Source: a virus (lineage: Duplodnaviria > Heunggongvirae > Uroviricota > Caudoviricetes). Taken from it: a DNA stretch of 22,200 bases. A model generated the notes under the pieces. The model saw nothing but the letters and a program-made list of their open reading frames with translations, ran no database searches and was not told the DNA's origin. Location of the stretch: IMG/VR virus record IMGVR_UViG_3300037471_001733, positions 1 through 22,200 of that record. The stretch is one strand, 5' to 3'. Positions 1,844 to 17,846 of this stretch are shown piece by piece. Position numbers and translations under genes: made by a program. Position 1 is the first letter of the stretch, and every line of letters begins with the position of its first letter.

Positions 1844-2256
1844 GCTTTCCCCTTGAGTCGTTCGACCGACCGTATGCCGCTCAACCCGAGCAAGCCCGTC
1901 AGCAGCGCGAACAGAGCTTCACCATCCACGTCCGGCAGCGGCGGCACGTCATGCACGCCAGCGACGGTCAAGCACCACGGCAGTAGCGGGCGCAGGAGGA
2001 ATGTGTAGCCCATAGACGCGACGCATACCCAAAGCGCTGCGGGACGCGGGCCGCTTTTGAAAATGCTTGGCTGTTGCGCCTCGGTCTTGTTCACGTCAAT
2101 CTGGGCGAGCGCGAGACGCACTTCTGCATCCAGCGCAGCGAGTTCACCCTTCTGTGCCAGATCCAGGAGGCGCAGCTTCGCGTCCGCAGCGGTGGCTGCA
2201 TCGGGCAGCACCTTCTCCAGTGCCGATGTCAAGAGGGTTAGGAGTGCTGGGAGCAT
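1840..2256 (-). CDS. Holin family protein (GTA 3TM-holin-like), 138 aa
   Basis: IDVNKTEAQQPSIFKSGPRPAALWVC motif, hydrophobic segments, and C-terminal LLGLSGIRSVERLKGKA are typical of this family. Confidence 0.8.
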   Translation of the reverse strand: MLPALLTLLTSALEKVLPDAATAADAKLRLLDLAQKGELAALDAEVRLALAQIDVNKTEAQQPSIFKSGPRPAALWVCVASMGYTFLLRPLLPWCLTVAGVHDVPPLPDVDGEALFALLTGLLGLSGIRSVERLKGKA

Positions 2257-2264
2257 GATCTATG

Positions 2265-2298
2265 TTGAAGTAATGTGCTCTAACGTGTATAAATACAC
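2265..2298 (+). promoter_or_regulatory. Sigma70-like promoter for tnpA with overlapping inverted repeat
   Basis: TTGAAG (2265-2270), 17-bp spacer, TATAAA (2288-2293). Palindrome GTGTAT-AA-ATACAC (2285-2298). ATG at 2301 is 7 nt past the -10 box and has no SD. Confidence 0.55.
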
Positions 2299-2300
2299 CC

Positions 2301-2924
2301 ATGGAGCACACATTAAGCGTGGGCGAAGCGGCGGAAATGCTGGGCGTCACGGTCAAGACGTTGCAGCGATGGGAGCGCGAAGGGAGGTTGATCCCGCACG
2401 CACGCACGCCCACGGGCCGACGCCGATACACCGAGGTGCAATTGCGCGAGTTCATGGGCATCAAGCATCCGGCAGCCAAGCGCAAGGCCGTGGCCTACTG
2501 CCGCGTTTCCAGCGCAGCGCAGAAGCCCGACCTTGCCAACCAGCGTCGCGTGCTGGAGGAATTTGTCGCGGCGCGGGGCTTGGCGAATGTCGAGTTCATA
2601 GAGGAAGTCGGGGGCGGACTCAACTTCTCGCGCAAGAAGTTCCTTGCGCTGATGGACGCCGTGGGGCGCGGCGAAGTGGCGACGTTGGTGCTGGCGCACC
2701 GCGACCGGCTCACTCGCTTTGGCTTCGAGTGGTTCGAGCACTTTGCGCAACTGCACGCCTGCGAAATCTTGGTGCTCAACCAGGAGCGGCTGTCGCCGGA
2801 AGCCGAGATGGTGCAAGACCTCATGACCATCGTGCACTGCTTCTCGTCGCGCCTGTACGGGCTGCGCAACTACCGGCGCAAGCTGCAGGAAGCGCTGGGG
2901 CAGGATTCCGCTGGGGAGCAGTGA
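2301..2924 (+). CDS. tnpA: IS607-family serine transposase TnpA, 207 aa
   Basis: N-terminal MerR-like HTH (LSVGEAAEMLGVTVKTLQRWEREG, GRRRY), serine recombinase motif AYCRVSS, and DRLTRFGF. Confidence 0.95.
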   Translation: MEHTLSVGEAAEMLGVTVKTLQRWEREGRLIPHARTPTGRRRYTEVQLREFMGIKHPAAKRKAVAYCRVSSAAQKPDLANQRRVLEEFVAARGLANVEFIEEVGGGLNFSRKKFLALMDAVGRGEVATLVLAHRDRLTRFGFEWFEHFAQLHACEILVLNQERLSPEAEMVQDLMTIVHCFSSRLYGLRNYRRKLQEALGQDSAGEQ

Positions 2925-4228
2925 TGCAACTCGCCCACCGCATCGCCCTGGACCCCACGCCCGAGCAGCGCGAGTATTTCCAGCGCGCAGCAGGCACCGC
3001 TCGCTTCGTCTGGAATTGGGCGCTGGCCGAGTGGAACCGGCAGTACGCGGCCGGCCAGAAGCCAAACGCCAATGCCCTCAAGCGGCAGTTCAACGCCATC
3101 AAGTACACCGAGTTCCCATGGCTCGTAGACGTGCACCGCGACAGCCACGCACAGCCCTTCGCCAATCTCGCCAAGGCGTGGACCAAGTTCTTCAAGGACA
3201 TCCGCGAAGGCCGCGAGGCCCACGCGCCGCAGTTCAAGAAGAAGAACAAGAGCCGCGCATCTTTCTACGTCGCCAACGACAAGTTCGCCATCGACGGCAT
3301 GAGCGTGCGCCTGCCCATGGTGGGTCGCGTGGTGATGCGCGAGGCCCTGCGCTTCGAGGGCAAGGTGATGGCCGCGAGCGTGAGCCGCACGGCGGATCGC
3401 TGGTTCATCGCCTTTCAGGTGGATGTGCCCGACGCGCAGTTCTATCGCAAGCGCACCGGCCACGGCACGGTGGGCGTAGACCTGGGGCTGAAGGCCGCGG
3501 CCACACTGTCTACGGGCGAATCCATCCAGGCGCCCAAGCCATTGCGCGCGGCGCTGCGCCGTCTGCAAATCCGCCAACGGCGCCAGTCGCGCAAGATCGA
3601 GGCGGCCAAAGCTGCCGCAGGCATCAAGGGCAAGCGTGTCCCGAAAGGCGCACGACTGGAGAAGTCCAACAATTTCAAGAAGTCATCTGTCCCGTTGGCG
3701 CGGCTGCACGCGCGCATCGCCAATGTGAGAGCGGATTTCCTGCACAAGCTCACGACCCGTCTCTGCCGCGAAAACCAAGCGGTGGTGATCGAGGACTTGA
3801 ACGTGAGCGGCATGCTCGCCAACGAGAAGCTAGCCCGCGCCATCAGCGATGTCGGCTTCTTCGAGTTCCGGCGGCAACTCACCTACAAGGCTGCGCGCTA
3901 CGGCACGCGGCTGGTGGTGGCTGACCGCTGGTTCCCGAGCAGCCGACTGTGTTCGGCGTGCGGATGGAAGAACGAAGCGCTCAAGCTCAAGGACCGGGAA
4001 TGGGTCTGCTGCGGTTGCGGCAGCATCCACGACCGGGATGTGAACGCGGCGCTTAACCTCAAACGGCTCGCAACCGAAACTGCGCTACCCGTGGCAAGTG
4101 CGTCCGGCAACGGCGCTGCTGCGGCAGGGATGGTCCCTGCCGTGGTCGGGGAAGTCACGCCTGTCAGGCACGAGGCGGTCAGTAAGACGGCTCGGGGCAG
4201 GAAGAAAACTCCGCGCACTTGTGCGTAG
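2924..4228 (+). CDS. tnpB: IS607-family RNA-guided nuclease TnpB, 434 aa
   Basis: Start at ATG 2924 (MQLAHRIALDPT..AGTARFVWNWAL), coupled to the tnpA stop. RuvC motifs VGVDLG, VIEDL and HDRDVNAA are intact. Zn ribbon CSACG/CCGCG. Confidence 0.95.
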   Translation: MQLAHRIALDPTPEQREYFQRAAGTARFVWNWALAEWNRQYAAGQKPNANALKRQFNAIKYTEFPWLVDVHRDSHAQPFANLAKAWTKFFKDIREGREAHAPQFKKKNKSRASFYVANDKFAIDGMSVRLPMVGRVVMREALRFEGKVMAASVSRTADRWFIAFQVDVPDAQFYRKRTGHGTVGVDLGLKAAATLSTGESIQAPKPLRAALRRLQIRQRRQSRKIEAAKAAAGIKGKRVPKGARLEKSNNFKKSSVPLARLHARIANVRADFLHKLTTRLCRENQAVVIEDLNVSGMLANEKLARAISDVGFFEFRRQLTYKAARYGTRLVVADRWFPSSRLCSACGWKNEALKLKDREWVCCGCGSIHDRDVNAALNLKRLATETALPVASASGNGAAAAGMVPAVVGEVTPVRHEAVSKTARGRKKTPRTCA

Positions 4229-4262
4229 ATTTTTGAAAGCAGCATGATCAGTCCAATCCTTC
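4080..4262 (+). ncRNA. Putative omegaRNA (reRNA) of IS607 TnpB, boundaries approximate
   Basis: Inferred from the established rule that the TnpB guide RNA overlaps the tnpB 3' end and right end and takes its guide from the adjacent flank. Not verifiable from sequence alone. Confidence 0.4.
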
Positions 4263-4619
4263 TGGCCAATCCGGGATCGGCACTGTCTTGCCGGCCAGGT
4301 CGTGACTGCAATCGCTCAGAAACTCAATCTGCCCGTCGCGGACGAAGCTATGGCACTGCTGGCACGAGAATGGCGCGGGCTTCAGCGGGTGGTCGCGGTT
4401 GTAGGTACACCAGCAGTGCTCGCGCGGCTCGCCGCTGTATGCGTAGTGGCCCTGGCGCATGAGCAGGCTTGGCGAGAAGGTCGGCCGTTCGGCGTCGCCG
4501 TTCCAGTCCCATGCGCCGCCGATGCCTACGCTCACGTCGTGCGCGGCCTGGCACCCAGGGCACCAAAAAGAAAGCCGGCCATCGGGTCGGCGTCGGAGGA
4601 TTTTCGACAGCGCCTGCAT
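4248..4619 (-). CDS. Cys/His-rich phage protein, probable DUF6527 family, 123 aa
   Basis: FWCPGCQAAH, WDWNGDAERPTFSPSLL and CHSFVRDGQIEFLSDCSHDLAGKTV motifs. Confidence 0.75.
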   Translation of the reverse strand: MQALSKILRRRPDGRLSFWCPGCQAAHDVSVGIGGAWDWNGDAERPTFSPSLLMRQGHYAYSGEPREHCWCTYNRDHPLKPAPFSCQQCHSFVRDGQIEFLSDCSHDLAGKTVPIPDWPEGLD

Positions 4620-4622
4620 GGG

Positions 4623-5102
4623 TCAGGCCGCCTTCAGGTTTTCAGCGATGCGCTGCGTCCAGCCACGGCTGAAGGATGGCCACTGAGGCAAGTCGTTGAG
4701 GAAGTCCAGTCGCTCACCATTGAAGCGGCACATGAGTCGAAACCCGTCAGCCGCACGCATGGCCGCCAGCGTGACCGGCCCGAGCACGCCGTCATCCTTC
4801 ACGCCCAGCGCGCGCTGCATGAGCTTGGCCGCCTGCACGGGGCCGCTGTTGTAGGCGGTATCGAACAAGTCGAAGCGCACGGCGGCAGGAACCTCGTCTG
4901 CGTGAACCACGTCCCAATAGCTCGCCTTGGCGATCTTCTTGGCCAAGTCCAGAGGAAACACGCGCATGTCACCCGTGTAGCCGTTGGCGCGGGCCACGCG
5001 CTGTGTGATTCCGTAGCGGGTCGCCATACCGGGGTCGGCTGGGTGCGAGACGTAATCGCCCTCGTGCCCAAGCAAGCGCTGGAAAGCAGTATCGAAATCC
5101 AT
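4623..5102 (-). CDS. Endolysin, glycoside hydrolase family 108 with peptidoglycan-binding C-terminus
   Basis: LLGHEGDYVSHPADPG..TRYGIT, FDTAYNSGP..A, LQRALGV.DDG..GP.TL and FSRGWTQRI motifs. ATG 5102 preferred because AGGAGG lies 6 nt upstream. Confidence 0.92.
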   Translation of the reverse strand: MDFDTAFQRLLGHEGDYVSHPADPGMATRYGITQRVARANGYTGDMRVFPLDLAKKIAKASYWDVVHADEVPAAVRFDLFDTAYNSGPVQAAKLMQRALGVKDDGVLGPVTLAAMRAADGFRLMCRFNGERLDFLNDLPQWPSFSRGWTQRIAENLKAA

Positions 5103-5104
5103 GA

Positions 5105-5434
5105 TCACCCTCCTGCCGCCAGCCGGTATGCCGCCGCTCTCACATCGGACACGAGCAGCGTCATCCAGGCGTGCAGTGCATTGACCTCGCCGCCCGTCAG
5201 GTCACGAGGCTCGCGTGCTGATTCGCGCACCTCCTGCACCCGTACCACTGGCGCGTAGTCCAGGCGCACGATGTGCCGGCAGTGATACCGGTCCGTTACG
5301 TGCTGTGCATGCGCGCACAGGCCGGGCACGCACGGCAGCGAAGGCATTTCCAACCGTATGCCTTCGTGCATAACTATGCACACGCGACCATCCCACAGGA
5401 GTCGCGTTTGAATGGGGGGAAGGTCCAAGTCCAT
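5105..5434 (-). CDS. Hypothetical protein, 109 aa
   Basis: Strong SD (AAGGAG) 8 nt before the ATG; fills the gap between holin and endolysin. No family recognised. Confidence 0.65.
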   Translation of the reverse strand: MDLDLPPIQTRLLWDGRVCIVMHEGIRLEMPSLPCVPGLCAHAQHVTDRYHCRHIVRLDYAPVVRVQEVRESAREPRDLTGGEVNALHAWMTLLVSDVRAAAYRLAAGG

Positions 5435-5465
5435 TTGTCGCGCTCCTTTTCGTGCAGTAGGTCGC

Positions 5466-5678
5466 TCAGTCCTCGCGCGGCGCCTGATCCCGTCTTTCGC
5501 GCCTCACATCCCTGAGCCATCGCCAGACAAGATAGGCCATTTGCATCAGTAGAAAGATGCAGCCCAGAAACGCGGCCACGTCCGAGAACGTGAATCCGAA
5601 TACAGGGCCTGCCGTGACAGCTATCGCTGCGGGCGTTGCCTCAACAGCATGCTTGAGTAATTCAGGTTTCTGGCTCAC
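5466..5678 (-). CDS. Probable holin (T7 gp17.5-like), about 70 aa
   Basis: GTG 5678 after AAAGGCGG. Pattern ATPAAIAVTAGPVFGFTFSDVAAFLGCIFLLMQMAYLVWRW followed by a basic C-terminus. The ORF track starts at 5711. Confidence 0.6.
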   Translation of the reverse strand: MSQKPELLKHAVEATPAAIAVTAGPVFGFTFSDVAAFLGCIFLLMQMAYLVWRWLRDVRRERRDQAPRED

Positions 5679-5728
5679 GGCCGCCTTTCGGTTGCAATCA
5701 GGTGGTTGCATGCTCTACCTGAAGATCG

Positions 5729-7669
5729 TCAATAGATGGTGCGACTAAACTCGTATAGGTAGCCCGTGCCGCCGATCACGCGAAGCTCGCAGAGGAGCGA
5801 GCCAGGGCCGGAGAAGTTCGAAGCCAACTGCATGAACGGACCCTTCGTAAATGTCATGTTTGCGTTCGATGTAAAGAACGCGACGAGGCGCGGCACCTGA
5901 TCCGTCGCATTGATCGACGTCACGGAGACGGCCGACGTTGCAGACACGGTGAATTTCGACGACGCCGGGCTGAGCGTGAGCGCGCCACCGGACACGTTGC
6001 TCTGCGTGAGCGTGCTGCCGGAGTCGGCCAGGCTGATGTTGCTGGACGCCAGCATCGGATACTCGTTGAGCGCGTCCGTGAGCGGCGCGCAGCCGATCAT
6101 GCTGCCGGTGTGCAGGTACTCGACCTTCGCCGTATTGGCGCCACCGACCCACAGGCGCCGCGGGCGGAACGTGTTGCCGGACAGGTCCACGGCAGGGTTC
6201 GTGCCGGTGAGGCTGATGCCGCGGACGCCGGCCATCGTGCCGCCGCTGCCGGTGAAGTAGATGAAGTTCTCAGTTGCGACCTTGGAGAAGCCGGTGGCGT
6301 CGCTCGACGCTTTCAGGCGGATGCCGTACGAGTTCGCCGAGTCCAGTTGGATGTAGTTGCCGCGGTAGACGTTGCCGTACGTGTCATACGTGCTGTCGAT
6401 TGCAGTGAGCGGCGCAGCCGTATTCCCGAAGAAGAAACAGTCACGGACGCTAGTGCCCCAGCCTTTGTCGACTATGCAAGCATTCTCGACCGCTTCGAAA
6501 TAGCAGCCGTCGATCACGACTTTGCGCATGCCGTCGTTGACGAGGATGCCGTACGCAACGGTCGAGCACTCGCAGGACTCCATCATCGTGGACAGCGCGC
6601 CAATGCCCGTTCCTCCGGAGCCGAGGTTGAACCCGACGTTGAAGCCGCGCGCAGTGATCTTGCGCAGGTTCAGCAGGCCGCCGGTCTTCTCGGTGCCGCA
6701 GTCGACAGCAGTACCGGTGCGGGTGACGGGCGGGACGGCCACGAGTTGGTCATTCATCACGTGCGTCAGCTCGACCAAGCCACCATATGCCGAGTCGAAG
6801 CGGATGCCGGCGCCCGTGCCGTGCTGCCGAATCTCGCACTTCGAGATAACGGAGTAGTCTGAGAAACGATTGAAGTAGACGACTGGGTTCACCGTCGTCG
6901 CGTCAAAGCGAAGCTTCTCGATGTAGATGTGCGGGCACGACGATGAGTTGGTGACGTAGTTGTCGTAGCGCAGAGCCGGCGACGAGTCCGGGGACACGAT
7001 GACGGTGCCGCGGATTGCGCTGCCACCGAGGAATCCGTTGGGTGCGCCTTCGCCGAACAGGTGGAAGACGTAGCCACGATAGTCGAATCCAGGGCTCGCT
7101 TCAGGCAGAGCGATCTTGGCCTTGTAGCGCCCAGCCGGGAAGAAAAGCGACCGACCGCGCGCCCAGGCGTGGTTCATGGCCTTCTGAACACCAGCCGTCA
7201 CGTCCAGCGAAAGCGCGCCAGAGCGAACGTCCGCGCGCTCCTCTATCGTTAGAAAGTCAAGCACGCACACCGCATCAAGAGTTCGATCCTGAACGGTGCG
7301 CGGGACAGCATTCGCATCGTCAAAAACCGTGCCGATGAGGTTGGTGCCCTTGCCTGCTCCAGTGCCGGCGAGGAACTGCGCCAGCCCGGCCGCAGTCTCT
7401 CCAGGGATCAGCGTGTTGGCCTCTTGCACGAAGATCGGCAGTGCCTCGAATAGCGCGTCGGCCCGGTCGTTGAAGTTGGTCGGGTCGTTACGGGAGGGCG
7501 GATCAGGAAGCGGGGTGAAGCTCACGTAGAAAGCTCCTCTGTTAGAAGGCGACGGGGCCGGCGCAGGAGAAGGCGATGGCGAAGGAGACGGGGAAGGCGC
7601 TGCTGCTACAGCCGCATCCCCATCCGTGCCGATGACGAAGCCACCGACGTCAACGAATCCGATTTCCAT
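5729..7669 (-). CDS. Tailspike / tail fibre with pectate-lyase-like beta-helix (646 aa from ATG 7669; about 598 aa from GTG 7525)
   Basis: Anchor motif FTPLPDPPSRNDPTNFNDRADA. RTVQDR..AVCVLDF and DVTAGVQKAM..LFFPAGRY beta-helix cap. Many short beta-rung repeats with Asn/Cys ladders. Confidence 0.85.
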   Translation of the reverse strand: MEIGFVDVGGFVIGTDGDAAVAAAPSPSPSPSPSPAPAPSPSNRGAFYVSFTPLPDPPSRNDPTNFNDRADALFEALPIFVQEANTLIPGETAAGLAQFLAGTGAGKGTNLIGTVFDDANAVPRTVQDRTLDAVCVLDFLTIEERADVRSGALSLDVTAGVQKAMNHAWARGRSLFFPAGRYKAKIALPEASPGFDYRGYVFHLFGEGAPNGFLGGSAIRGTVIVSPDSSPALRYDNYVTNSSSCPHIYIEKLRFDATTVNPVVYFNRFSDYSVISKCEIRQHGTGAGIRFDSAYGGLVELTHVMNDQLVAVPPVTRTGTAVDCGTEKTGGLLNLRKITARGFNVGFNLGSGGTGIGALSTMMESCECSTVAYGILVNDGMRKVVIDGCYFEAVENACIVDKGWGTSVRDCFFFGNTAAPLTAIDSTYDTYGNVYRGNYIQLDSANSYGIRLKASSDATGFSKVATENFIYFTGSGGTMAGVRGISLTGTNPAVDLSGNTFRPRRLWVGGANTAKVEYLHTGSMIGCAPLTDALNEYPMLASSNISLADSGSTLTQSNVSGGALTLSPASSKFTVSATSAVSVTSINATDQVPRLVAFFTSNANMTFTKGPFMQLASNFSGPGSLLCELRVIGGTGYLYEFSRTIY

Positions 7670-7672
7670 ATG

Positions 7673-7697
7673 AAAAAAGCCGCCTCAAGGGCGGCTT
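7673..7697 (-). terminator. Intrinsic terminator-like hairpin
   Basis: Minus strand AAGCCGCC-CTTGA-GGCGGCTT followed by TTTT. Confidence 0.7.
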
Positions 7698-7721
7698 GCT
7701 GGGTTGCGTTGGAAACGGCTC

Positions 7722-8630
7722 TTAAACCAAGCCTTCGATTTCAAGGCTGCAGGTGCTCTTGGTGCGCCCAGGGATCGTGATCGACCAGTCCTTGTAGAAC
7801 CCGTAAATCACAAGACTCTCGTCATCAGGCGAGGCAATCCAGACGACAGGAGTAGCGCGAACATTGGTCAGGCGCTCAGCGGCCACATTGATGGATGCCG
7901 TATCTAGCAGCAGCGGCAAGGACATGCGCTTGTTGAAGGCGCGCTCCACAAGCGTGACGTTGCCGAAATCATCGCGATCCTTCTTGCTGTAGTCCGTGAT
8001 GCCGAAGCTGGTGTTCACAAGAACACGGCCAAGGTTGTAGATACGGCCGACGAGGCACGATCCAACCGAAATAGTCCCGCGCCCCCGAAAACTGAGGACA
8101 ACATCGGCGTTGCTATACGGCGGCAAGTCTCGGAGCACGAGAATCTTTCGACGCTTGATCGCGTCGAAGAAATAATCGAAGTAGTTGTCGACGTCTTCGA
8201 GGCTGCCAAGAGGATCGTAGGTCTTGCTGTAGACCGTCTTATCGTTGGCAACGACTTCCACGGTCAAGCCATCAACGTCTAGATCCAGCAACGCGATGCC
8301 TCGTATCAGTCCTGGACGAATGCGAACCGTGATCGTTGCATCTTCGGTCGGACTGGCCGCCGTGGCCGTTGTCTTGGTGCCGACGACCTTGTCAAACATG
8401 GCCCAGCGATTCGTAGGGCCGATGCGCGTCCAGTTGATTGCATCTTGCTCCGGTGGCGTCGACGAACTACCGGCGACGATGCGCTTGTAGACGCTATGCG
8501 TCGCCGATCTGACCACGAACTGGCCGACGGCATAGACGGCGCCAGCGAACCATTCGCCGTAGTCTGTTTCAGGCACGCTGCTGCTCACCAGCACCGCGTC
8601 AGTGATGCTGGTCGGTACGAGGTACTGCAT
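7722..8630 (-). CDS. Tail-tip structural protein, 302 aa
   Basis: Directly follows the tape measure. ITDAVLVSSSVPETDY.EW and W.RIGPTNRWAMFD motifs; KDRDDFGNVTLVERAF..R resembles distal-tail-type proteins. Confidence 0.7.
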   Translation of the reverse strand: MQYLVPTSITDAVLVSSSVPETDYGEWFAGAVYAVGQFVVRSATHSVYKRIVAGSSSTPPEQDAINWTRIGPTNRWAMFDKVVGTKTTATAASPTEDATITVRIRPGLIRGIALLDLDVDGLTVEVVANDKTVYSKTYDPLGSLEDVDNYFDYFFDAIKRRKILVLRDLPPYSNADVVLSFRGRGTISVGSCLVGRIYNLGRVLVNTSFGITDYSKKDRDDFGNVTLVERAFNKRMSLPLLLDTASINVAAERLTNVRATPVVWIASPDDESLVIYGFYKDWSITIPGRTKSTCSLEIEGLV

Positions 8631-8632
8631 GG

Positions 8633-11600: not shown

Positions 11601-13744
11601 CTCGGATTGAATGGCTGTGACGTGGCATTGCTGATCTGCTGGCGGACGGTATCCAGCATTTCCTCGGTCGTCTGCACGCGCCCGATGCGCAGCACGAAGT
11701 CAATGCCTTCGCTACCCTTTCGCTTGAGCGTGTCCCACCAGCGCTCCAGGGTGCCGAAGTGCTGCGCTGCGTCCTGCAGCCGCGTGTTCAACGCGTCGAA
11801 TGTCTTGGCCAAGGCCTCCTGCGTGCGACCCTGGTCCTCCATCGCTTTGATCTGCTGGAGTTGGGCTGCCGTCAGGAAGTTGTACTGCTTGTTCAGCTCA
11901 GCGGCAAACTTCGCCGGTGCTTCGGCCGCGCCCGCAAAGCGCTTGGCCACAGCATCTGCGCCCTCGCCAGTGACCTTGCTGAAAAGCTGCGCGGCACTGG
12001 CGGCCGATTGAAGCGTTTGCCCCGTGAGTTGGCCGCTGGCAACTAGGGCTTGCAGAGTCCCGCGCGTGCTGCCTATCGTCGTCTCGGTCGCTTCCGAGAT
12101 CGACCGGGCCATAGCGTTGTACTGGCCTTCGGTAAGTCCAGCAGCATTCCCGGTGAGAGTAATAGTTCTCGCGAACTCAGCACTTTGGGCCGAGCCCTTC
12201 GCATATGCTGCAGTCAAGCCGGCGACCGCCGCAGTAGCCAAGACCACCGGGTTGGTCAAAAGGCTGAGAAATCCAGCCGCAAGCCCCTTCAGCGCGCCGC
12301 CTACGCTGCCGAAGATGTCGCGCAACTGGCCGCCTTGCTGGATCAAGATGGTGAACGGGTCCGTTCCCATCTGCAGTTGGGTGATGATGTCCGTGATCTG
12401 AGGAGCCACCAGCGCCATCTGCTGCGCGGCCAGACGGCTTTCCTTGCCGACGCCGGTGAAGCCCTTTTCTGCCTTGGCGAGCGCATCCAGCAGCGGTTTC
12501 GCTTCATTGGTCACGCCGAGCATGGCGGCGCGCTGCGCAAGCAGGTCGTAGGTACTCTTGGTTCCTAGGTCAAGTCGCTGCCGCAGTCCCTTGATGAATT
12601 CTTCGCCCTTCGCCGCCTGTGCGGCGTCAATCTGGGCCTGCTTCAGTGCTTGGAACTTCTGGATCTGTGCTTCGGCAGCAGCCCCGACGCCGGCCAAGCT
12701 GGCCTGAAGGCGCTTCTCAGCCACCTCCATCTGCAGCAGTTCAGACGCATTCTTGTTGGCGGCAACAGCTTGCCGCTCCAACGCCGCGACCTGGGAATCC
12801 AGGGTGACCTGGAACGCCTGCCCCGATTTCGCCTGGGCTGCGTCAATCTGCGCTTGCTTGAGAGCCTGGTACTTCTGGATCTGCGCCTCAGCCGCCGCGC
12901 CAGCCCCTACAAGGGCGGCCTCCTGACGCTTCTCGGCCACCTCCAGCGCCAGCAACTCCGTCGCCGACAGCTTGGCGGCAGACGCTTGCTTTTGCAGGGC
13001 TGCGACTTGCGCGTCAATCGAGGACTGGAAGTCATCCGCGCCCTTAATCTTCGATGCACCAGATAGCGTCGCCTGCTGGATGGCCGCCACTTGTGCTTGA
13101 GCTTGCGCAAAAGCCTGCTGGGCAGATGCCAGTGCAGTAGCAGCGGCATCCTTGCCGGAACCGCTCCTGTGCGCCGCAGCCACGGCATCAATCGCCTTGA
13201 CCAACTCCCTTTGCGCTTCGACCAGCCGTTGCGTGGCCTGAGTCTGAGAGTTGCGCTGCGCAGTCAGAAAATCCTGTGCTGCTTGGCGTTGATCTTGACT
13301 GCGCAGTCCGGCCAACTCGCGCTCAGCCGTCGCCAACTGCTTGGCAGTTGACTCCAAGGTCTGCTGAGCGCGGGCGGCAGAGTTCCCGCCAGCCTCTATC
13401 TGCCGGAGCGCATCAATCCACGGCTTCAGAGCCGCAGCATTCAAGCCACGCGCGGCACCAAGTCGCTCGGCCAGGTCAGCCTCAAGGCTGCCCTTCATGC
13501 CGTTGCTGATCTCGGCCATGGACCGCTTGATGCGCGACACAAGGCTGGCGGTGGATGCGTCCAGATTGGCGCTGGCCTTGCCGCCGGCTTCGCCAATCTG
13601 TCTGAGTCCGGCCGCACTGGCATCGCCAGCCTCTTTGGCGGCTTGGCCAAGCGAGGCCAGATCGCGCTTCATGGCGTTGATGGCGCCTCCAACGCCATCA
13701 GCCGAGACGCCAAACTCCAACTGGCCTTTCAGTTCACCCGCCAT
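8633..13744 (-). CDS. Tape measure protein, 1703 aa
   Basis: Long Ala/Gln-rich helical ORF after the chaperones. QITDIITQL..G..PFTILIQQGGQLRDIFG motif, TLTGNAAGLT motif, Gly-rich hydrophobic segment, C-terminal GFATGGDHVGGWRVVGEAGPEL. Confidence 0.95.
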   Translation of the reverse strand: MAGELKGQLEFGVSADGVGGAINAMKRDLASLGQAAKEAGDASAAGLRQIGEAGGKASANLDASTASLVSRIKRSMAEISNGMKGSLEADLAERLGAARGLNAAALKPWIDALRQIEAGGNSAARAQQTLESTAKQLATAERELAGLRSQDQRQAAQDFLTAQRNSQTQATQRLVEAQRELVKAIDAVAAAHRSGSGKDAAATALASAQQAFAQAQAQVAAIQQATLSGASKIKGADDFQSSIDAQVAALQKQASAAKLSATELLALEVAEKRQEAALVGAGAAAEAQIQKYQALKQAQIDAAQAKSGQAFQVTLDSQVAALERQAVAANKNASELLQMEVAEKRLQASLAGVGAAAEAQIQKFQALKQAQIDAAQAAKGEEFIKGLRQRLDLGTKSTYDLLAQRAAMLGVTNEAKPLLDALAKAEKGFTGVGKESRLAAQQMALVAPQITDIITQLQMGTDPFTILIQQGGQLRDIFGSVGGALKGLAAGFLSLLTNPVVLATAAVAGLTAAYAKGSAQSAEFARTITLTGNAAGLTEGQYNAMARSISEATETTIGSTRGTLQALVASGQLTGQTLQSAASAAQLFSKVTGEGADAVAKRFAGAAEAPAKFAAELNKQYNFLTAAQLQQIKAMEDQGRTQEALAKTFDALNTRLQDAAQHFGTLERWWDTLKRKGSEGIDFVLRIGRVQTTEEMLDTVRQQISNATSQPFNPSRFGGNAEARAQLPDLKRQEAALAIAADEEAQRATSAANRAQAEKDAAAAIDLQNKNLSKTDQLNKAIRDTMGPIAKAIANPLTDPKVRDELLKNYQQTYDQLRDRFKESNSGAQTAFNDATRAQVEAVKQAEKEKLEVIKRSQEDVALRRATGQLSERESIEENTRLDLRALETRRDALLKEAALVAKKKDATGEAAALTRQAAEIEDQITTRSIKGKNELIRLDYEREKAVKAVLAAQYEEYQNDIIKANTADSDARREYFNQQLADLQAIKDENRVLDLQASMLFASAEARQVASEKLKIQIALEKQLQEIRSKFGANSVQETQAIENAELQAQQVQSRVFLSEWEKTTDQVSQALTNALMEGGKSGADYIKGLFRSMVLRPVIQAVMQPVTGAIAGALFGGSNGSDGGGGSSLLGTAGNIASFANMSRSLGSLPWLSNFSGAVEGAGFQAISNGFTGTGEFLINNSNTIGNIGNGLGYASALYSATQGRWGSAIGTGVGTWFFGPIGGMIGGTIGGLLDSAFGGGGTPHRGGAFTVSTDFLAGGRLANAANTPGFGLESGAFRSDRSADVDKSVQSLVTGVASTIGAALTSFGLGAATVTGKFASDNDDDSWAGLRIVGRNGRVLANLDSRNFNSDPQKGFEEFATQAGKTVRDALIAADLPGWADEILKSVGDSAGIDVINQVVAEIKAISDASKALAPALNITTDQFIALTRAVGGASNAASLVQGYIQAIYTDSEQLAVRQKVLAQAFKEINVAVPTSAAAYRKLVESQNLNTEAGRKMYLSLLQLAPVFGEIADAADELKNQAKGVIDEIARLRGATDKDAATTQAQFAIKTAAARAGDKDALSELPGLSKAVEEALTATARSAAEVASIRASLAASLTSTLKALKVPGFATGGDHVGGWRVVGEAGPELEYTPPSRIFNNQQTQSLLDTSALEAEVAALREQVADLIEAARANAIHAAKTAKLIERAMPEGDAIQTRAAD
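12624..13032 (-). repeat. Tandem 216-bp (72-aa) internal duplication in the tape measure gene
   Basis: gcgtcaatctg at 12624 and 12840. Protein units ...EVAEKRQEAALVGAGAAAEAQIQKYQALKQAQIDAAQ and ...EVAEKRLQASLAGVGAAAEAQIQKFQALKQAQIDAAQ. Confidence 0.85.
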
Positions 13745-13747
13745 CAG

Positions 13748-15066
13748 AAATCTCCGAGGAACTTCCCATTAACGGGGAGGAGGTAACGAGTGCGCCCGCA
13801 GGGCGCAGGATATTCGGTTGACTTACGAACAATTCCAGACTTTTACACGCTTCGCGTGTATCGTCTGAGCCATGGAAATCAAGCGTGCCTTCCGCTTCCG
13901 CTGCTATCCGTCGCCGGATCAGCAGGTGGTGCTGGCGCGCACGTTCGGCTGCGCTCGATTCGTCTACAACCACATGCTGCGGCTTCGCACCGATGCGTGG
14001 TTCCAGAAGCAGGAACGGGTTGGGTATCACGAAACCTCCGCTGCGCTCACGGCGCTGAAGAAGCAGCCGGAACTGGAGTGGTTGAACGAGGCAAGTTCGG
14101 TGCCGCTGCAGCAGTCGCTGCGGCACTTGCAGACTGCGTTCACCAACTTCTTCGCCAAGCGGGCGGCATACCCGTCGTTCAAGTCCAAGCACGACAAGCA
14201 GGCGGCTGAGTACACGACCAGCGCCTTCAAGTGGGACGGCAAGGCGCTGAAGCTGGCGAAGATGGACACACCGTTGCCAATTCGCTTCTCGCGCACGATC
14301 CCGAAAGCGGCCAAGGTCACGACTGTGACGGTCAGCCGCGATGCGGCGGGCCGGTACTTCGTGTCCATGCTCTGCGACGACGCGGTGGAAGCACTGCCAG
14401 CTGCCGAGTCCAAGGTCGGCATCGACCTGGGGCTCACGCACTTCGCCATCCTCTCCAGTGGCGAGAAGATCGACGCACCGAATGCCTTCCGCAAGAACGA
14501 AGCGAAGCTCGTCAAGCTGCAGCGCAGACTGGCGAAGAAGGTCAAGGGCTCCAAGAACCGCGCGAAAGCACGGCTCAAGGTAGCCAGGGCACACGCCCAC
14601 ATTGCCGACGCCCGCAGGGACTTCCTGCACAAGCTCTCGACAAGGCTGATACGCGAGAACCAAGTGATCGCCGTCGAGACGCTGGCCGTCAGCAATATGA
14701 AGAAGAACCGGTCCCTGTCCAAGTCCATCTCGGATGCGGGCTGGGCCGAGTTCCTGCGCCAGTTGGAATACAAGGCGCAGTGGTACGGGCGCACGCTGGT
14801 CGGCATCGACCGGTGGTTTCCTTCAAGCAAGCGATGCAGCGACTGCGGGCATACCGCAGCCAAGATGCCGTTGAAGGTGCGCGAGTGGACCTGCCCCGAG
14901 TGCGGCAGCATCCACGACCGCGACGTCAACGCTGCGCGCAACGTTTTGGCCGCCGGACTGGCGGTGTCAGCCCATGGAGAAGCGGTAAGTCCTGTCTGCA
15001 TTTGATGCTGGTGGGCTCGGTTCTGCGAAGTGGGAATCCCCGTCCTTCAGGGCGGTGAGCGGTCAA
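13748..15066 (+). mobile_element. IS200/IS605-family element, tnpB-only (IS1341-type), 1319 bp
   Basis: Right end GAAT-CCCCGTCC-TTCA-GGGCGGTG-AGCGG-TCAA (15034-15066). Left flank TCAG (13744-13747) followed by GAAC and a shortened hairpin (13759-13779). No TSD and no tnpA. The empty site reconstitutes a TGATG gene overlap. Confidence 0.88.
13872..15005 (+). CDS. tnpB: RNA-guided nuclease TnpB (IS609/InsQ-like), 377 aa
   Basis: KRAFRFRCYP..Q...LARTFGCARFVYN HTH. RuvC motifs VGIDLG, IAVETL and HDRDVNAA are intact. CSDCG/CPECG Zn ribbon. Confidence 0.96.
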   Translation: MEIKRAFRFRCYPSPDQQVVLARTFGCARFVYNHMLRLRTDAWFQKQERVGYHETSAALTALKKQPELEWLNEASSVPLQQSLRHLQTAFTNFFAKRAAYPSFKSKHDKQAAEYTTSAFKWDGKALKLAKMDTPLPIRFSRTIPKAAKVTTVTVSRDAAGRYFVSMLCDDAVEALPAAESKVGIDLGLTHFAILSSGEKIDAPNAFRKNEAKLVKLQRRLAKKVKGSKNRAKARLKVARAHAHIADARRDFLHKLSTRLIRENQVIAVETLAVSNMKKNRSLSKSISDAGWAEFLRQLEYKAQWYGRTLVGIDRWFPSSKRCSDCGHTAAKMPLKVREWTCPECGSIHDRDVNAARNVLAAGLAVSAHGEAVSPVCI

Positions 15067-15086
15067 TCCTGGTGCTCACGCATGGC
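14930..15086 (+). ncRNA. Putative omegaRNA of the IS1341-type TnpB; guide begins at 15067 (TCCTGGTGCTCACGCATGGC). 5' boundary approximate
   Basis: Established TnpB architecture plus a recognisable right-end hairpin ending in TCAA at 15066. Confidence 0.55.
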
Positions 15087-15371
15087 GGCCAAGCCGGCCG
15101 CTTCCATCGCGCGGATGTCTTCAAACAGAACGTCGAACTCTTCGTCAGTCAGACGCATGCGCGCCATGTGAGTCAGAACGACGTTGTGGTCTAGGGCGTA
15201 GTGGCCGCCCATGCTGGTGCGCCACTGATTGCGCACGAGGTCGAAGAGGCGGAAAGCCTGCAGGTTTTCCGGCCAAACTTCGACAGGTTCAGGCTCGTAG
15301 TCCTCGGCGGACAGACCGGAGCCTTCAAGAGACTTGGCGGAAGGTGGCTGCCAGCACAGCACCTTCGCCAA
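15063..15371 (-). CDS. Second tail assembly chaperone ORF (DUF1799-like), probably made as a frameshift fusion
   Basis: VEVWPENLQAFRLF...NQWR....G.YALD motif. TTG start without a clear SD; lies in the -1 frame of the upstream chaperone. Confidence 0.85.
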   Translation of the reverse strand: MAKVLCWQPPSAKSLEGSGLSAEDYEPEPVEVWPENLQAFRLFDLVRNQWRTSMGGHYALDHNVVLTHMARMRLTDEEFDVLFEDIRAMEAAGLAAMREHQD

Positions 15372-15376
15372 GGCCT

Positions 15377-15853
15377 TCAGTTTCCCAGGCGGCCCTCTTT
15401 CAGCGCACGGTTGTATGCGTCAGCAATCGCAGCCGCAGCGCCAGGGAAGCGGTCAACCAACTGCAGCACGTTCTCGCGGTCGAACGCATCGGCAAGCTCC
15501 CAACCCTCTGCTGCCGACAGGATGTAGTCCGCATGCCCCTCGTTGATGGCCATGGCGAACTCGGCCTCGGTCGGAGGCTTCGGAGGCTCCACAACAGGCT
15601 CAGCAGCAGCCGGCTTGCGGCCCTTCTTCGCAGGCGCCTCAGCAGCAGCGGCTATCGGCGTCTTGATCCGGTCCACAAGCGCATCAATACGCGCGCGCGA
15701 AGCGGTCGACTGATCGTCAGTCATTTGCGCAAGCTCAGTCCGCGTGCGGTACTTGAACGTGAACTCCAGCGCGTCTGGCTCGCCGCCGGGCACAGGAATG
15801 TCAACGCTCAGTTTGAAATTGGCCGGGCGCTTGCCGAGGGTGATCTTTGCCAT
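15377..15853 (-). CDS. Tail assembly chaperone (gpG-like), 158 aa
   Basis: MAKITLGKRPANF..V.IPVPGG....LEFTFKYRTR, and GWELADAFDRENV.QL...FPGAA.AI..AY..AL..GRLGN. ATG 15853 chosen because the longer start runs through a terminator. Confidence 0.88.
   Translation of the reverse strand: MAKITLGKRPANFKLSVDIPVPGGEPDALEFTFKYRTRTELAQMTDDQSTASRARIDALVDRIKTPIAAAAEAPAKKGRKPAAAEPVVEPPKPPTEAEFAMAINEGHADYILSAAEGWELADAFDRENVLQLVDRFPGAAAAIADAYNRALKEGRLGN
15380..15386 (-). promoter_or_regulatory. Programmed -1 ribosomal frameshift site GGGAAAC
   Basis: CTG GGA AAC TGA at the chaperone end (X XXY YYZ). The -1 frame reads AAA CTG AAG GCC TTG GCG, continuous with ORF 15063-15371, as in lambda G/GT. Confidence 0.85.
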
Positions 15854-15875
15854 TGTGTTGTCGTTGAGTAGGAAC

Positions 15876-15909
15876 AAAAAAAGCCAGCCGGGAGCTACCG
15901 CGGCTGGCT
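15876..15909 (-). terminator. Intrinsic terminator-like hairpin
   Basis: 9-bp stem AGCCAGCCG/CGGCTGGCT followed by a T run on the minus strand. Confidence 0.65.
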
Positions 15910-15960
15910 GTGTAAGCCCGGTGCCCACGCACCGGGATGGCGTGCATCGTGAGATGCATG

Positions 15961-15993
15961 AAAAAGCCCGCAGGGCTTGCGCCGTGCGGGCTT
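15961..15993 (-). terminator. Intrinsic terminator-like hairpin downstream of the homing endonuclease
   Basis: Stem AAGCCCGCA/TGCGGGCTT, then TTTCAT on the minus strand. Confidence 0.65.
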
Positions 15994-16022
15994 GTGACTA
16001 CCCCTTGCGGGGAGGAATCTGT

Positions 16023-17087
16023 TTAGGCTTCGGCGACTTCTGTCTCAGCCTTAGATGCAGCTTCCGCTGCGGCCTTGGCGGCTTCCTTCGCCGCCTTGTT
16101 ACGGGCTCGCGTCTCAGCACACTTGGCTAGGCGGGCGGCCTTCACTTCCGGGTCTGCCCATGCGGCTATCACTTTGGCTGTCGGCTTGGGGACGTGCTGC
16201 GGCTTTATGAGGCCGGCAGCTTCCGCTTCAGCCTTCTTGCGGGCGCGCGTGGCAGCGCACTTCTCCAGGCGAGCAGCCTTCTTCTCGGGATCATCCCAAA
16301 TGGACTGCGTGTGCCGCCTCCGCACCTCGCGCTCTTCATCCGACAAGCGTTTCTTCTCTAGCCTGAACTGCTCCCAATACTTCCTGGAAGCCTCTAGTGT
16401 TTGCTCTCGGCCTTCTTCCGACCAATTCTTCGGCTTGCCTTTCATCGCCTCTGAACGCTTTCGCTTCTGCTCCTCGCTCATTGGAGCGCGAGTTTTGCCG
16501 GCGTTCGCGGCTCCGATCTTGGCCTTCCGCTCCGCAGGCATCGGCCCCATCTTCTTGCCGAGTCTCGCGGCCCTCAATTTGGCTGCGTGCTCTTCCGTGA
16601 TTGGGCCGCGTTTCTTGCCGATCCGCGAGGCCGACATCTTCGCCCTCGTTTCTTCCGAGGGCACATAACCCTTGTGCGAATCAGAGAGCTTTCGCCTGTG
16701 CTCTTCAGAAAGCGGCTTGCCGCGTAAAGCCTGAGCCCTACGCTCTATAGTTTCCGCATGCTGCCTACCGGAGCCGCCTCCAGCATTTAGGTTGTATCCC
16801 TTGCTTTTATTGCGGGTGTCATAGAAGTTGATGAACTCGACCTCTTTCTCGTTGAGTTCATCTTTGTTTGACGCCTCAAAAATAACCTTTATCTCAAACG
16901 CCTCTACACCATATTTGGCAATTGAGTTTTTCAGCCTTCGGCATCCGGTGCTGTCTCTGATGTGTTTCCGCCACCTGCTTTTGACAGAGCCCACGGTCTG
17001 CCCTATGTAGCGCTTGCCAGTCACCACGTTGGTGATCATATAGATCACGCCGTAGGGCTTCGGTCGTGTAGAATCCGCGCCAGCCAT
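16023..17087 (-). CDS. Free-standing GIY-YIG homing endonuclease with NUMOD3 repeats, 354 aa
   Basis: GVIYMITNVVTGKRYIGQT, conserved R (SRWRKH), E (LNEKEVEFI) and GYN. Multiple SEE(H/T/Q)R.K(L/M)S...G.K repeats. The catalytic-domain DNA is AT-richer than its neighbours. Confidence 0.9.
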   Translation of the reverse strand: MAGADSTRPKPYGVIYMITNVVTGKRYIGQTVGSVKSRWRKHIRDSTGCRRLKNSIAKYGVEAFEIKVIFEASNKDELNEKEVEFINFYDTRNKSKGYNLNAGGGSGRQHAETIERRAQALRGKPLSEEHRRKLSDSHKGYVPSEETRAKMSASRIGKKRGPITEEHAAKLRAARLGKKMGPMPAERKAKIGAANAGKTRAPMSEEQKRKRSEAMKGKPKNWSEEGREQTLEASRKYWEQFRLEKKRLSDEEREVRRRHTQSIWDDPEKKAARLEKCAATRARKKAEAEAAGLIKPQHVPKPTAKVIAAWADPEVKAARLAKCAETRARNKAAKEAAKAAAEAASKAETEVAEA

Positions 17088-17117
17088 TTCTTGCAGTCCT
17101 TTCCTGCTGAGTGGTTA

Positions 17118-17152
17118 GAAACCCGCAGCCGTTAGCAGCGACTGCGGGTTTC
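17118..17152. promoter_or_regulatory. 11-bp stem-loop in the leader of the homing endonuclease
   Basis: GAAACCCGCAG (17118-17128) pairs with CTGCGGGTTTC (17142-17152); 13-nt loop. Confidence 0.55.
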
Positions 17153-17198
17153 GCTATTTTCGGGCCTATGCGTATATTTACAGCAAAGACCCTACTGA

Positions 17199-17846
17199 TT
17201 ATGCTGAATAGCGCGTGTGCCTGGAATTTCCGTTTACGACTGCCGAGATGCGATTTATCTGACCTTCCGTCAGACGCGGCACATCATTCAAAGCGACACG
17301 GCCCGGGATATATACCCGCGAGCCATTGCGCAGGAGCATTTTCAGAACCGTATCGGACTGCACGTCGGTCAGGCTGCGCAGCGCGGTATACCCAGCCGTG
17401 GTGTCGTCGTCGTCCAATTCCAGGGTGTACGACGTCGGGGTGAAACCGTCATTAATCGAAAATTCTGTATCATTTTCGAGATATTTGTAAGTAACAGTTT
17501 TCGGATCGCCGCCCGAAGTTTGCGGGTTCATGATCTTCGTGAGCTGCACCCAGGTCGTGACCTTGCGCACCGTGCCAGCGCCGCCGCTGGCGGGATACGT
17601 GGTCGTGCTGCTGGTGTCCAGATTGACCAGCGTGAACGTGGTGGACGTCACGGCACCGATCTCGAACACCCGCTTGGTAACGCGACCCCAGCCGTTGGTG
17701 ATCTCCACCACATCGCCGTTGGAGTAGCTGTGCGCCGTGGAGGTCGTGACGACTGCGGTGGAGGCGTTGCTGACGCCAGTCACGGTGAAAGACGAGCCGA
17801 AGGCGGTTGCCACACTGAAGGTGGTCCCGGTAGGTACGTTAGCCAT
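17199..17846 (-). CDS. Major tail tube protein (Phage_tail_3-like), 215 aa
   Basis: MANVPTGTTFSVAT, H...NGDVVEIT.GW, G.G..RKVTTWVQL..I.NPQTSGGDP...TY.YLE and LKMLL.NGS..Y.PG.V.LN..P motifs. Confidence 0.9.
   Translation of the reverse strand: MANVPTGTTFSVATAFGSSFTVTGVSNASTAVVTTSTAHSYSNGDVVEITNGWGRVTKRVFEIGAVTSTTFTLVNLDTSSTTTYPASGGAGTVRKVTTWVQLTKIMNPQTSGGDPKTVTYKYLENDTEFSINDGFTPTSYTLELDDDDTTAGYTALRSLTDVQSDTVLKMLLRNGSRVYIPGRVALNDVPRLTEGQINRISAVVNGNSRHTRYSA

What the first reader, a model, noticed from the sequence alone, without database searches (positions are those of the whole stretch)
2252..17501. Three apparently intact selfish nucleases in one phage late operon: a possible phage-versus-phage homing arsenal
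Seen: two unrelated TnpBs (IS607 and IS200/605 types) with all three RuvC acidic residues, plus a GIY-YIG/NUMOD3 endonuclease with its conserved residues. All lie between essential genes, and no flanking phage ORF is visibly broken. Established: TnpB guides derive from the flank beyond the right end and cut TAM-adjacent empty alleles; free-standing phage endonucleases cut cognate genes of co-infecting relatives. Inference: this phage can cleave IS-free or endonuclease-free relatives at the holin junction, the chaperone/tape-measure junction and probably the tail tube gene. That would spread the elements and might give interference against related phages.
Basis: partly seen in the sequence, partly recalled or inferred. 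Interest (0 to 1): 0.72.

Follow-up and report, generated by a model that had tools for sequence, protein, structure and literature searches.

The report
Three independent selfish nucleases in prophage
A prophage carries three real, intact DNA-cutting selfish elements (two RNA-guided TnpB transposons and one homing endonuclease gene), but they arrived separately, and only the homing endonuclease shows signs of spreading between related phages, so this is ordinary accumulation rather than a coordinated anti-phage weapon.

Summary
The three nuclease genes are real and look intact: an IS607 (2254-4242, adjacent motif GGAG), a tnpB-only IS200/IS605 element (13745-15066, CCAT) and a GIY-YIG/NUMOD3 gene behind the tail-tube gene. 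Corrections: the TnpBs are homologous (38% identical), and IS607 sits inside the holin ORF, between codons 1 and 2; its left tip re-supplies the ATG but not the ribosome-binding site.

The GIY-YIG occupies an optional slot that relatives leave empty or fill with related GIY-YIGs or an EndoVII. A recoded AT-rich patch in tail-tube codons 109-133 marks a likely cut/immunity site. This fits intronless homing.

The TnpBs do not fit phage-versus-phage use. The closest relatives have empty alleles, but none is a predicted target. At the holin the motif is missing and 6-9 of 16 guide bases mismatch. At the tape-measure junction the guide matches (14/16), but CCAT lies 7 nt away. No nuclease-carrying relative that covers the tape-measure junction has the IS there.

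Best reading: independent selfish elements at tolerated junctions; 'arsenal' unsupported. The scan has noted start/stop-junction TnpBs, ribosome-site-targeting IS607s and recoded patches beside endonucleases on other DNA.

The parts
2250..2253 (+). GGAG transposon-adjacent motif of the IS607 element (the AG is the likely crossover core); reads as holin codons 2-3 on the other strand
   Evidence: GGAG abuts the left end at 59 of 67 scorable sites of this IS607 subfamily, window included
2254..4242 (+). IS607-family element, 1989 bp: left end with probable tnpA promoter (2265-2293), tnpA, tnpB, omega-RNA scaffold, right end ending AGCAG
   Evidence: Ends defined from homologs; the promoter is a by-eye call, not passed by the consensus scan
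2254..2260 (+). Left-end tip identical to the first 7 nt of the right flank; its first three bases supply the holin start codon on the minus strand
   Evidence: None of 58 homologous left ends starts with CAT; none of 35 matches its own right flank by more than 3 leading bases
2301..2924 (+). tnpA, serine recombinase with N-terminal MerR-type HTH, 207 aa
   Evidence: Pfam PF00239, PF00376; dN/dS 0.11 vs L120
2921..4228 (+). IS607 tnpB, 435 aa, RuvC motifs at residues 185, 289, 371 and zinc finger intact
4243..4258 (+). Predicted 16-nt guide source of the IS607 TnpB; holds the stranded native holin ATG (4243-4245, minus strand) and the DUF6527 stop
   Evidence: guide position inferred from PMC8612924 and PMC10690162
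1840..2256 (-). 3-TM holin gene (GTA_holin_3TM), cut off from its native ribosome-binding site by IS607
   Evidence: relative L200 has DUF6527 stop, 2 nt, holin ATG
13741..13744 (+). CCAT transposon-adjacent motif of the IS200/IS605 element; contains the tape-measure start codon on the minus strand
   Evidence: Left-end guide tetranucleotide GGAA (13758-13761) predicts CCAT by the IS608 pairing rule (my knowledge of the rule; sequence); most homologs have GAAA with TCAT
13745..15066 (+). tnpB-only IS200/IS605 element, 1322 bp: left-end hairpin 13762-13780, tnpB, omega-RNA scaffold, right-end hairpin and terminal TCAA
   Evidence: no Y1 transposase in the record
13872..15005 (+). IS200/IS605 tnpB, 377 aa, RuvC motifs at residues 183, 267, 349 intact
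   Evidence: dN/dS 0.18 vs L202
15060..15066 (+). Last 7 nt of the right end, identical to the native DUF1799/tape-measure spacer of relative L115; carries the DUF1799 stop codon (15063-15065, minus strand)
   Evidence: this right-end variant occurs in 1 of 35 ends, the window's own
15067..15082 (+). Predicted 16-nt guide source of the IS200/IS605 TnpB (3' end of DUF1799)
16023..17087 (-). Free-standing GIY-YIG homing endonuclease with NUMOD3 repeats and a lineage-specific C-terminal extension, 354 aa
   Evidence: dN/dS 0.14 vs L116
17118..17152 (-). Leader hairpin of the endonuclease cassette, shared by GIY-YIG and EndoVII cassettes at this slot
   Evidence: 13 of 18 predicted leader pairs show a two-sided change in at least one of 6 sequences; no Rfam family
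17448..17522 (-). Recoded AT-rich patch in tail-tube codons 109-133; candidate cleavage/immunity site and co-conversion tract
   Evidence: Lowest-GC3 25-codon window in the window (0.32, permutation p 0.0003), L117 (p 0.001) and L116 (p 0.04); GC3 0.84-0.96 there in five empty alleles
17199..17846 (-). Tail-tube gene, host gene and probable target of the GIY-YIG
   Evidence: Pfam PF08813

Best explanation
Three selfish elements arrived independently in the late operon of one prophage and persist because the phage genes around them can still be read. (1) The GIY-YIG is a free-standing homing endonuclease: in a mixed infection or superinfection it cuts the tail-tube gene of a relative near codons 109-133, and repair from its own, recoded and immune allele copies the cassette across (intronless homing). 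The slot and the patch are shown; cutting is inferred. (2) The two TnpB elements are ordinary insertion sequences, probably picked up from the host while the phage was integrated. Each TnpB with its omega-RNA mainly guards its own site: it cuts the empty joint left by excision, and for IS607 also an IS-free copy of an almost identical sister phage, so that repair restores the element. Ends, motifs and guides are shown by comparison; activity is inferred. The IS200/IS605 TnpB is probably unable to home into natural relatives because its guide is 7 nt out of register with the motif. Any harm to competing phages is a side effect, not a coordinated system.
For: Slot polymorphism: empty in L115, L283 and 27 distant loci; GIY-YIG in L116, L119, L284-L286 and a JGI contig; EndoVII in L117. 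Recoded patch in three of four close nuclease-carrying alleles and in no empty one. Closest IS homologs lie in many unrelated bacterial genomes and contigs, 13+ copies in one betaproteobacterial MAG. No tail-module relative carries a tnpB at the DUF1799/tape-measure junction. No motif-plus-guide target in the four closest empty alleles or elsewhere in the prophage. Family habits explain tolerated landing: 8 of 11 homologous IS200/IS605 sites join a long upstream and downstream ORF at an ATGA versus 18 of 82 control ATGAs, p 0.001; 20 of 47 IS607 sites have a start codon 3-10 nt after GGAG versus 121 of 908 controls, p 2e-6 (many sites from one MAG). Donor-joint cleavage and intronless homing are established (PMC10055086, PMC10690162, PMC13565253).
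Against: The closest relatives are only about 72-84% identical in DNA, so a near-identical sister with a cleavable empty site may exist unseen. The patch is shared by a GIY-YIG and an EndoVII carrier and is absent in L119, L284 and L285, so it may be the scar of another nuclease. All three nucleases look conserved, which is also what benefit to the phage would give. No expression or cleavage data.
Confidence: 0.72

Rival explanations
1. Adaptive arsenal: the phage keeps all three nucleases because they cut co-infecting or superinfecting relatives and give it a competitive edge.
For: All three are intact and under purifying selection; empty alleles exist for all three sites; a homing endonuclease can give interference between phages (PMC11620839) and TnpB drives IS spread among plasmids (PMC11870625).
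Against: No co-inheritance; no predicted TnpB target in the closest empty alleles; the dN/dS values span the elements' history outside this phage; IS607 costs the holin its ribosome-binding site.
Confidence: 0.07
2. Passive accumulation in a domesticated or decaying prophage: the insertions are tolerated because the late operon is no longer used, and none of the nucleases matters.
For: The record is a provirus with no integrase found (the record is 73% complete by CheckV); the holin has lost its Shine-Dalgarno; the IS200/IS605 right-end hairpin has one mismatch against the consensus.
Against: Terminase, portal, protease, capsid and tail genes are full length; the holin ATG appears to have been restored by a 7-nt duplication seen in no homolog; the GIY-YIG slot and patch come from lytic-cycle history.
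Confidence: 0.15
3. The elements are silent for another reason: they splice or excise out of the late transcript or genome (IStron-like or TnpA-driven), so their placement costs nothing.
For: IS607 IStrons exist (PMC10690162); the IS607 here has an intact tnpA that could excise it.
Against: Both IS lie antisense to the late operon; no group I intron or other Rfam match; left ends are only 47 and 127 nt long.
Confidence: 0.06

Closest known systems
Free-standing GIY-YIG homing endonucleases of T-even phages (SegB, SegF; intronless homing, reviewed in PMC13565253); catalytic domain like I-TevI (PDB 1mk0)
   Same: GIY-YIG domain with I-TevI catalytic residues plus NUMOD3 repeats; optional gene between two conserved genes; altered sequence in the neighbouring conserved gene.
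   Different: Temperate siphophage-type tail module rather than a T4-like phage; the probable target is a tail-tube gene; the slot alternates between GIY-YIG and EndoVII genes behind a shared leader hairpin; cleavage not tested.
IS607-family elements with TnpB (IS607, IS1535, CboIStron; PMC6188088, PMC10690162)
   Same: MerR-HTH serine recombinase overlapping tnpB, no inverted repeats, dinucleotide core shared by motif and right end, guide from the right flank.
   Different: Motif GGAG with AG core instead of TGGG with GG; no intron; a 7-nt duplication at the left tip, although the family makes no target duplications.
tnpB-only IS200/IS605 (IS1341-type) elements; ISDra2 TnpB (PDB 8bf8, 8h1j; PMC8612924), ISGst elements (PMC10055086)
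   Same: Sub-terminal hairpins, right end ending TCAA, omega-RNA overlapping the 3' end of tnpB, intact RuvC, no transposase.
   Different: Motif CCAT (family mostly TCAT) instead of TTGAT; the guide is 7 nt out of register with the natural empty allele.
Interference by phage homing endonuclease gp210 of PhiPA3 (PMC11620839) and TnpB gene drive in plasmids (PMC11870625)
   Same: The same chemistry could harm or convert a competing replicon.
   Different: Those are shown by experiment; here no cleavable natural target was found for either TnpB and nothing was assayed.

Membership tests
IS607 family | Serine recombinase TnpA with N-terminal HTH, followed by tnpB | tested here: met
IS607 family | No terminal inverted repeats; dinucleotide core shared by target motif and right end | tested here: met
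   GGAG on the left, AGCAG on the right in homologs
IS607 family | No target-site duplication | tested here: inconclusive
   This copy has a 7-nt match between left tip and right flank that no homolog shows; read as a later rearrangement, not proven
IS200/IS605 family, tnpB-only group | Sub-terminal hairpins, tetranucleotide motif predicted by the left-end guide, right end ending TCAA | tested here: met
IS200/IS605 family, tnpB-only group | No Y1 transposase in the element | tested here: met
TnpB OMEGA nucleases | Three RuvC acidic residues and zinc finger | tested here: met
TnpB OMEGA nucleases | Conserved omega-RNA scaffold at the right end | tested here: met
   (sequence conservation only)
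TnpB OMEGA nucleases | omega-RNA expressed; RNA-guided, motif-dependent cleavage | not testable with these tools
   No RNA holder listed; needs assay
Free-standing homing endonuclease (intronless homing) | Intact nuclease domain plus DNA-binding repeats | tested here: met
Free-standing homing endonuclease (intronless homing) | Optional at a fixed site between conserved genes | tested here: met
Free-standing homing endonuclease (intronless homing) | Self allele altered at a target in a neighbouring gene | tested here: inconclusive
   Recoded patch in 3 of 4 close carriers and none of 5 empty alleles, but not specific to the GIY-YIG
Free-standing homing endonuclease (intronless homing) | Cleaves the non-self allele and is over-inherited in crosses | not testable with these tools
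   needs assay
Coordinated phage-versus-phage nuclease system | Components inherited together in relatives | tested here: not met
Coordinated phage-versus-phage nuclease system | Cleavable motif-plus-guide targets in natural relatives | tested here: not met
   (closest relatives are only 72-84% identical in DNA)

The most novel reading that the evidence does not exclude
The IS607 has its own plus-strand promoter, so its TnpB and omega-RNA could be made in the lysogen and cut the holin start of incoming IS-free sister phages, giving RNA-guided superinfection exclusion and homing. Together with the tail-tube-targeting GIY-YIG this would give the prophage a real edge over close kin, and would explain why the holin start codon was rebuilt from the element's tip instead of the element being lost.
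Probability: 0.12. Interest if true: 0.65.

Novelty: new member of a known kind. Interest (0 to 1): 0.3.

Why it matters
If the best reading holds, the value is modest but concrete. It gives a tail-tube homing slot in a temperate phage group with a predicted 75-bp target patch and natural sensitive and immune alleles ready for testing. It gives two TnpBs with predicted motifs (GGAG; CCAT/TCAT) for which my literature searches returned no description. It also shows that a TnpB guide can fall out of register with natural empty alleles, a caution for anyone inferring phage homing from a reconstructed empty site. If the IS607 TnpB does block sister phages from the lysogen, it would be a case of a transposon nuclease acting as prophage superinfection defence.

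Tried and rejected
Close relatives among annotated phages: none, only a 33-bp hairpin match. Sequencing runs: one DNA run, possibly the source sample; no RNA holder listed. Laying its contigs showed even cover and no joint at any empty site; contigs drop rare variants, so this says nothing about excision or induction. Rfam: no family for either omega-RNA or the leader hairpin. Gene-end replacement (a displaced copy of the tail-tube 3' end inside or after the cassette): none detected, although the last 35 codons are divergent and GC3-poor in carriers. First guess that the IS200/IS605 left end began at a TTAC near 13830: rejected, homologs place it at 13745. Extra TnpB, Y1 transposase, HNH_3 or integrase genes in the record: none found (the record is incomplete). 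Second targets of either guide in the prophage: none; only a 7-nt seed match of the IS607 guide at its own left junction, probably too short to cut. Sigma-70 and terminator scans were uninformative. Literature searches found no description of GGAG- or TCAT/CCAT-motif TnpBs or of ATGA-overlap targeting; the library lacks most subscription papers. No structure or complex prediction was run, because it would not change the verdict.
Full report
Setting. The window is the left end of an 87.8-kb provirus record; the same genes stand on a 120-kb contig. The minus strand carries a long-tailed-phage late operon: tail terminator, tail tube, chaperones TAC_4 and DUF1799, tape measure, tail tip, a holin-like gene, GH108 endolysin, DUF6527 and a 3-TM holin. 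Terminase, portal, protease and capsid genes further right are full length.

Observation. All three nuclease genes are there and look intact, with dN/dS of 0.14-0.22 against homologs and no excess of changes at conserved TnpB columns. The two TnpBs are homologous, 38% identical. No further TnpB or close GIY-YIG copy is in the record.

IS607. Eighty bacterial homologs fix the ends: GGAG, then the left end; the right end finishes AGCAG. Here the element spans 2254-4242. Removing it gives DUF6527 stop, two bases, holin ATG, as in relative L200. The junction falls just after that ATG, so the element is inside the holin ORF. The native ATG and ribosome-binding site are stranded on the right flank, where they open a 115-codon antisense frame. 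The holin now starts at a CAT formed by the element's first bases. This tip equals the first 7 nt of the right flank; no homologous left end starts with CAT (0 of 58) and none matches its flank by more than 3 leading bases (0 of 35). I read this as a small duplication that restored the start codon (inference). The new leader has no Shine-Dalgarno. The family usually lands between a GGAG ribosome-binding site and a start codon on its own strand (20 of 47 sites against 121 of 908 controls), so this antisense hit is off-pattern. The two closest holin genes (84% and 81% amino-acid identity) have no GGAG at the junction and differ from the guide at 9 and 6 of 16 positions. They would not be cut.

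IS200/IS605 element. Homologs place the left end at 13745, directly after CCAT, and the right end at TCAA 15066. The left-end guide tetranucleotide GGAA predicts CCAT by the IS608 pairing rule (my knowledge); most relatives have GAAA and TCAT. Whether the TnpB protein followed this switch is unknown. CCAT contains the tape-measure start codon and the right end contains the DUF1799 stop. This suits the family: TCAT is the reverse of the ATGA stop/start overlap and the right end brings an in-frame TGA (8 of 11 homologous sites against 18 of 82 controls; two of the eight have an ATG deep in its frame and are doubtful). The natural empty junction, seen in L115 and L117 and implied by gene spacing in a JGI contig, is stop, three bases, ATG. 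On the element's strand that is CCAT, seven bases, then the guide-matching sequence. The window's right end ends in exactly those seven bases of L115, a variant seen in 1 of 35 ends, so seven bases were probably lost at or after insertion. The guide, which starts right after the element's end (PMC8612924), matches L115 at 14 of 16 positions but is preceded there by TCAA, not CCAT. The enzyme must ignore TCAA or it would cut its own right junction (inference). It can therefore target only the joint left by excision (PMC10055086), for which a transposase must come in trans. Caveat: a closer sister phage with a different junction cannot be excluded.

GIY-YIG. Among the closest tail-tube relatives (85-89% amino-acid identity) the slot behind the gene is empty in L115, holds a related GIY-YIG in L116 and a JGI contig, a distant GIY-YIG in L119 and an EndoVII in L117. 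Homologs of the nuclease at 69% and 61% identity sit in the same slot of far more distant phages, while 27 distant tail modules and L283 have no insert. The cassettes share a leader hairpin with compensatory changes, and the L117 and L119 proteins end in the same three residues, which suggests exchange of coding parts within one cassette. Tail-tube codons 109-133 are the GC3 minimum of the gene in the window (0.32 against 0.86 upstream; p 0.0003), L117 and L116, and are ordinary in five empty alleles. The window and L117 are 95% identical over codons 109-122 against 85% upstream, and share an ENDTE variant found in only 2 of 120 homologs. This is the pattern expected of an immune allele carried along by intronless homing (PMC13565253). 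The patch is not specific to the GIY-YIG and is missing in L119, L284 and L285, so which nuclease made it is open.

Arsenal or accumulation. The endonuclease carriers that cover the tape-measure junction (the JGI contig, L117, L284, L285) have no IS there, and no tail-module relative has a tnpB at that site. The IS relatives come from many bacteria and unrelated viral contigs. The elements are thus separate acquisitions. Interference by a homing endonuclease (PMC11620839) and TnpB drive between plasmids (PMC11870625) show that side effects on competitors are possible, most plausibly for the GIY-YIG and, against near-identical sisters, for the IS607 TnpB. Nothing here shows selection for them.

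Verdict. Observation partly confirmed, interpretation partly supported. New members of three known kinds; interest 0.3. Earlier scan notes describe the same family habits on other DNA; I treated them as leads and rest the claims on the counts above.

Noticed in passing
window 15962-15993: A 33-bp GC-rich hairpin between the GIY-YIG and the chaperone gene is identical to an unannotated stretch of six Klebsiella phage records and conserved in L115 and L117; weak Rfam hits only.
   Followed up: partly
window 17118-17152; L116, L117, L119, L284, L285: Hairpin with an AAC-ending loop followed by CTAACCA precedes both GIY-YIG and EndoVII genes at this slot; compensatory changes, no Rfam family. Possibly a regulatory RNA or DNA element shared by homing cassettes.
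   Followed up: partly
L120-L199: This IS607 subfamily has a conserved GGAG adjacent motif and often sits between a Shine-Dalgarno sequence and a start codon; one betaproteobacterial MAG holds 13 or more copies.
   Followed up: yes
L029, L033-L035, L214, L215: IS200/IS605 relatives with TCAT motif sit in ATGA stop/start overlaps, with the right end supplying an in-frame stop.
   Followed up: yes
L200:476-1165: A 229-aa antisense ORF with an HNH-like motif (by eye; no Pfam hit) lies between endolysin and DUF6527 in the closest holin relative: another probable mobile nuclease in the lysis cassette.
   Followed up: partly
window 5466-5711: Second holin-like gene (PHROG 920) upstream of the endolysin, so the IS607-hit 3-TM holin may be dispensable.
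   Followed up: no
window 3898-4245 (minus strand): The stranded native holin ribosome-binding site and ATG open a 115-codon frame antisense to tnpB and the omega-RNA.
   Followed up: no
window 15002, run X1: A loose contig end shows another copy of a related IS200/IS605 right end in the same sample; its host is unknown.
   Followed up: no
window 15371-15377 and 8633: TAC_4 and DUF1799 lie back to back with a GGGAAA-type stretch near the TAC stop, the usual place of a tail-chaperone frameshift; not examined.
   Followed up: no
G000 74685-77165: queC-, queE- and queD-like ORFs (motifs seen) suggest 7-deazaguanine DNA modification, which could affect self versus non-self cutting by these nucleases.
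   Followed up: no
window 1-1068: 355-aa secreted-looking repeat protein on the plus strand at the record edge, no PHROG hit; host gene or moron.
   Followed up: no
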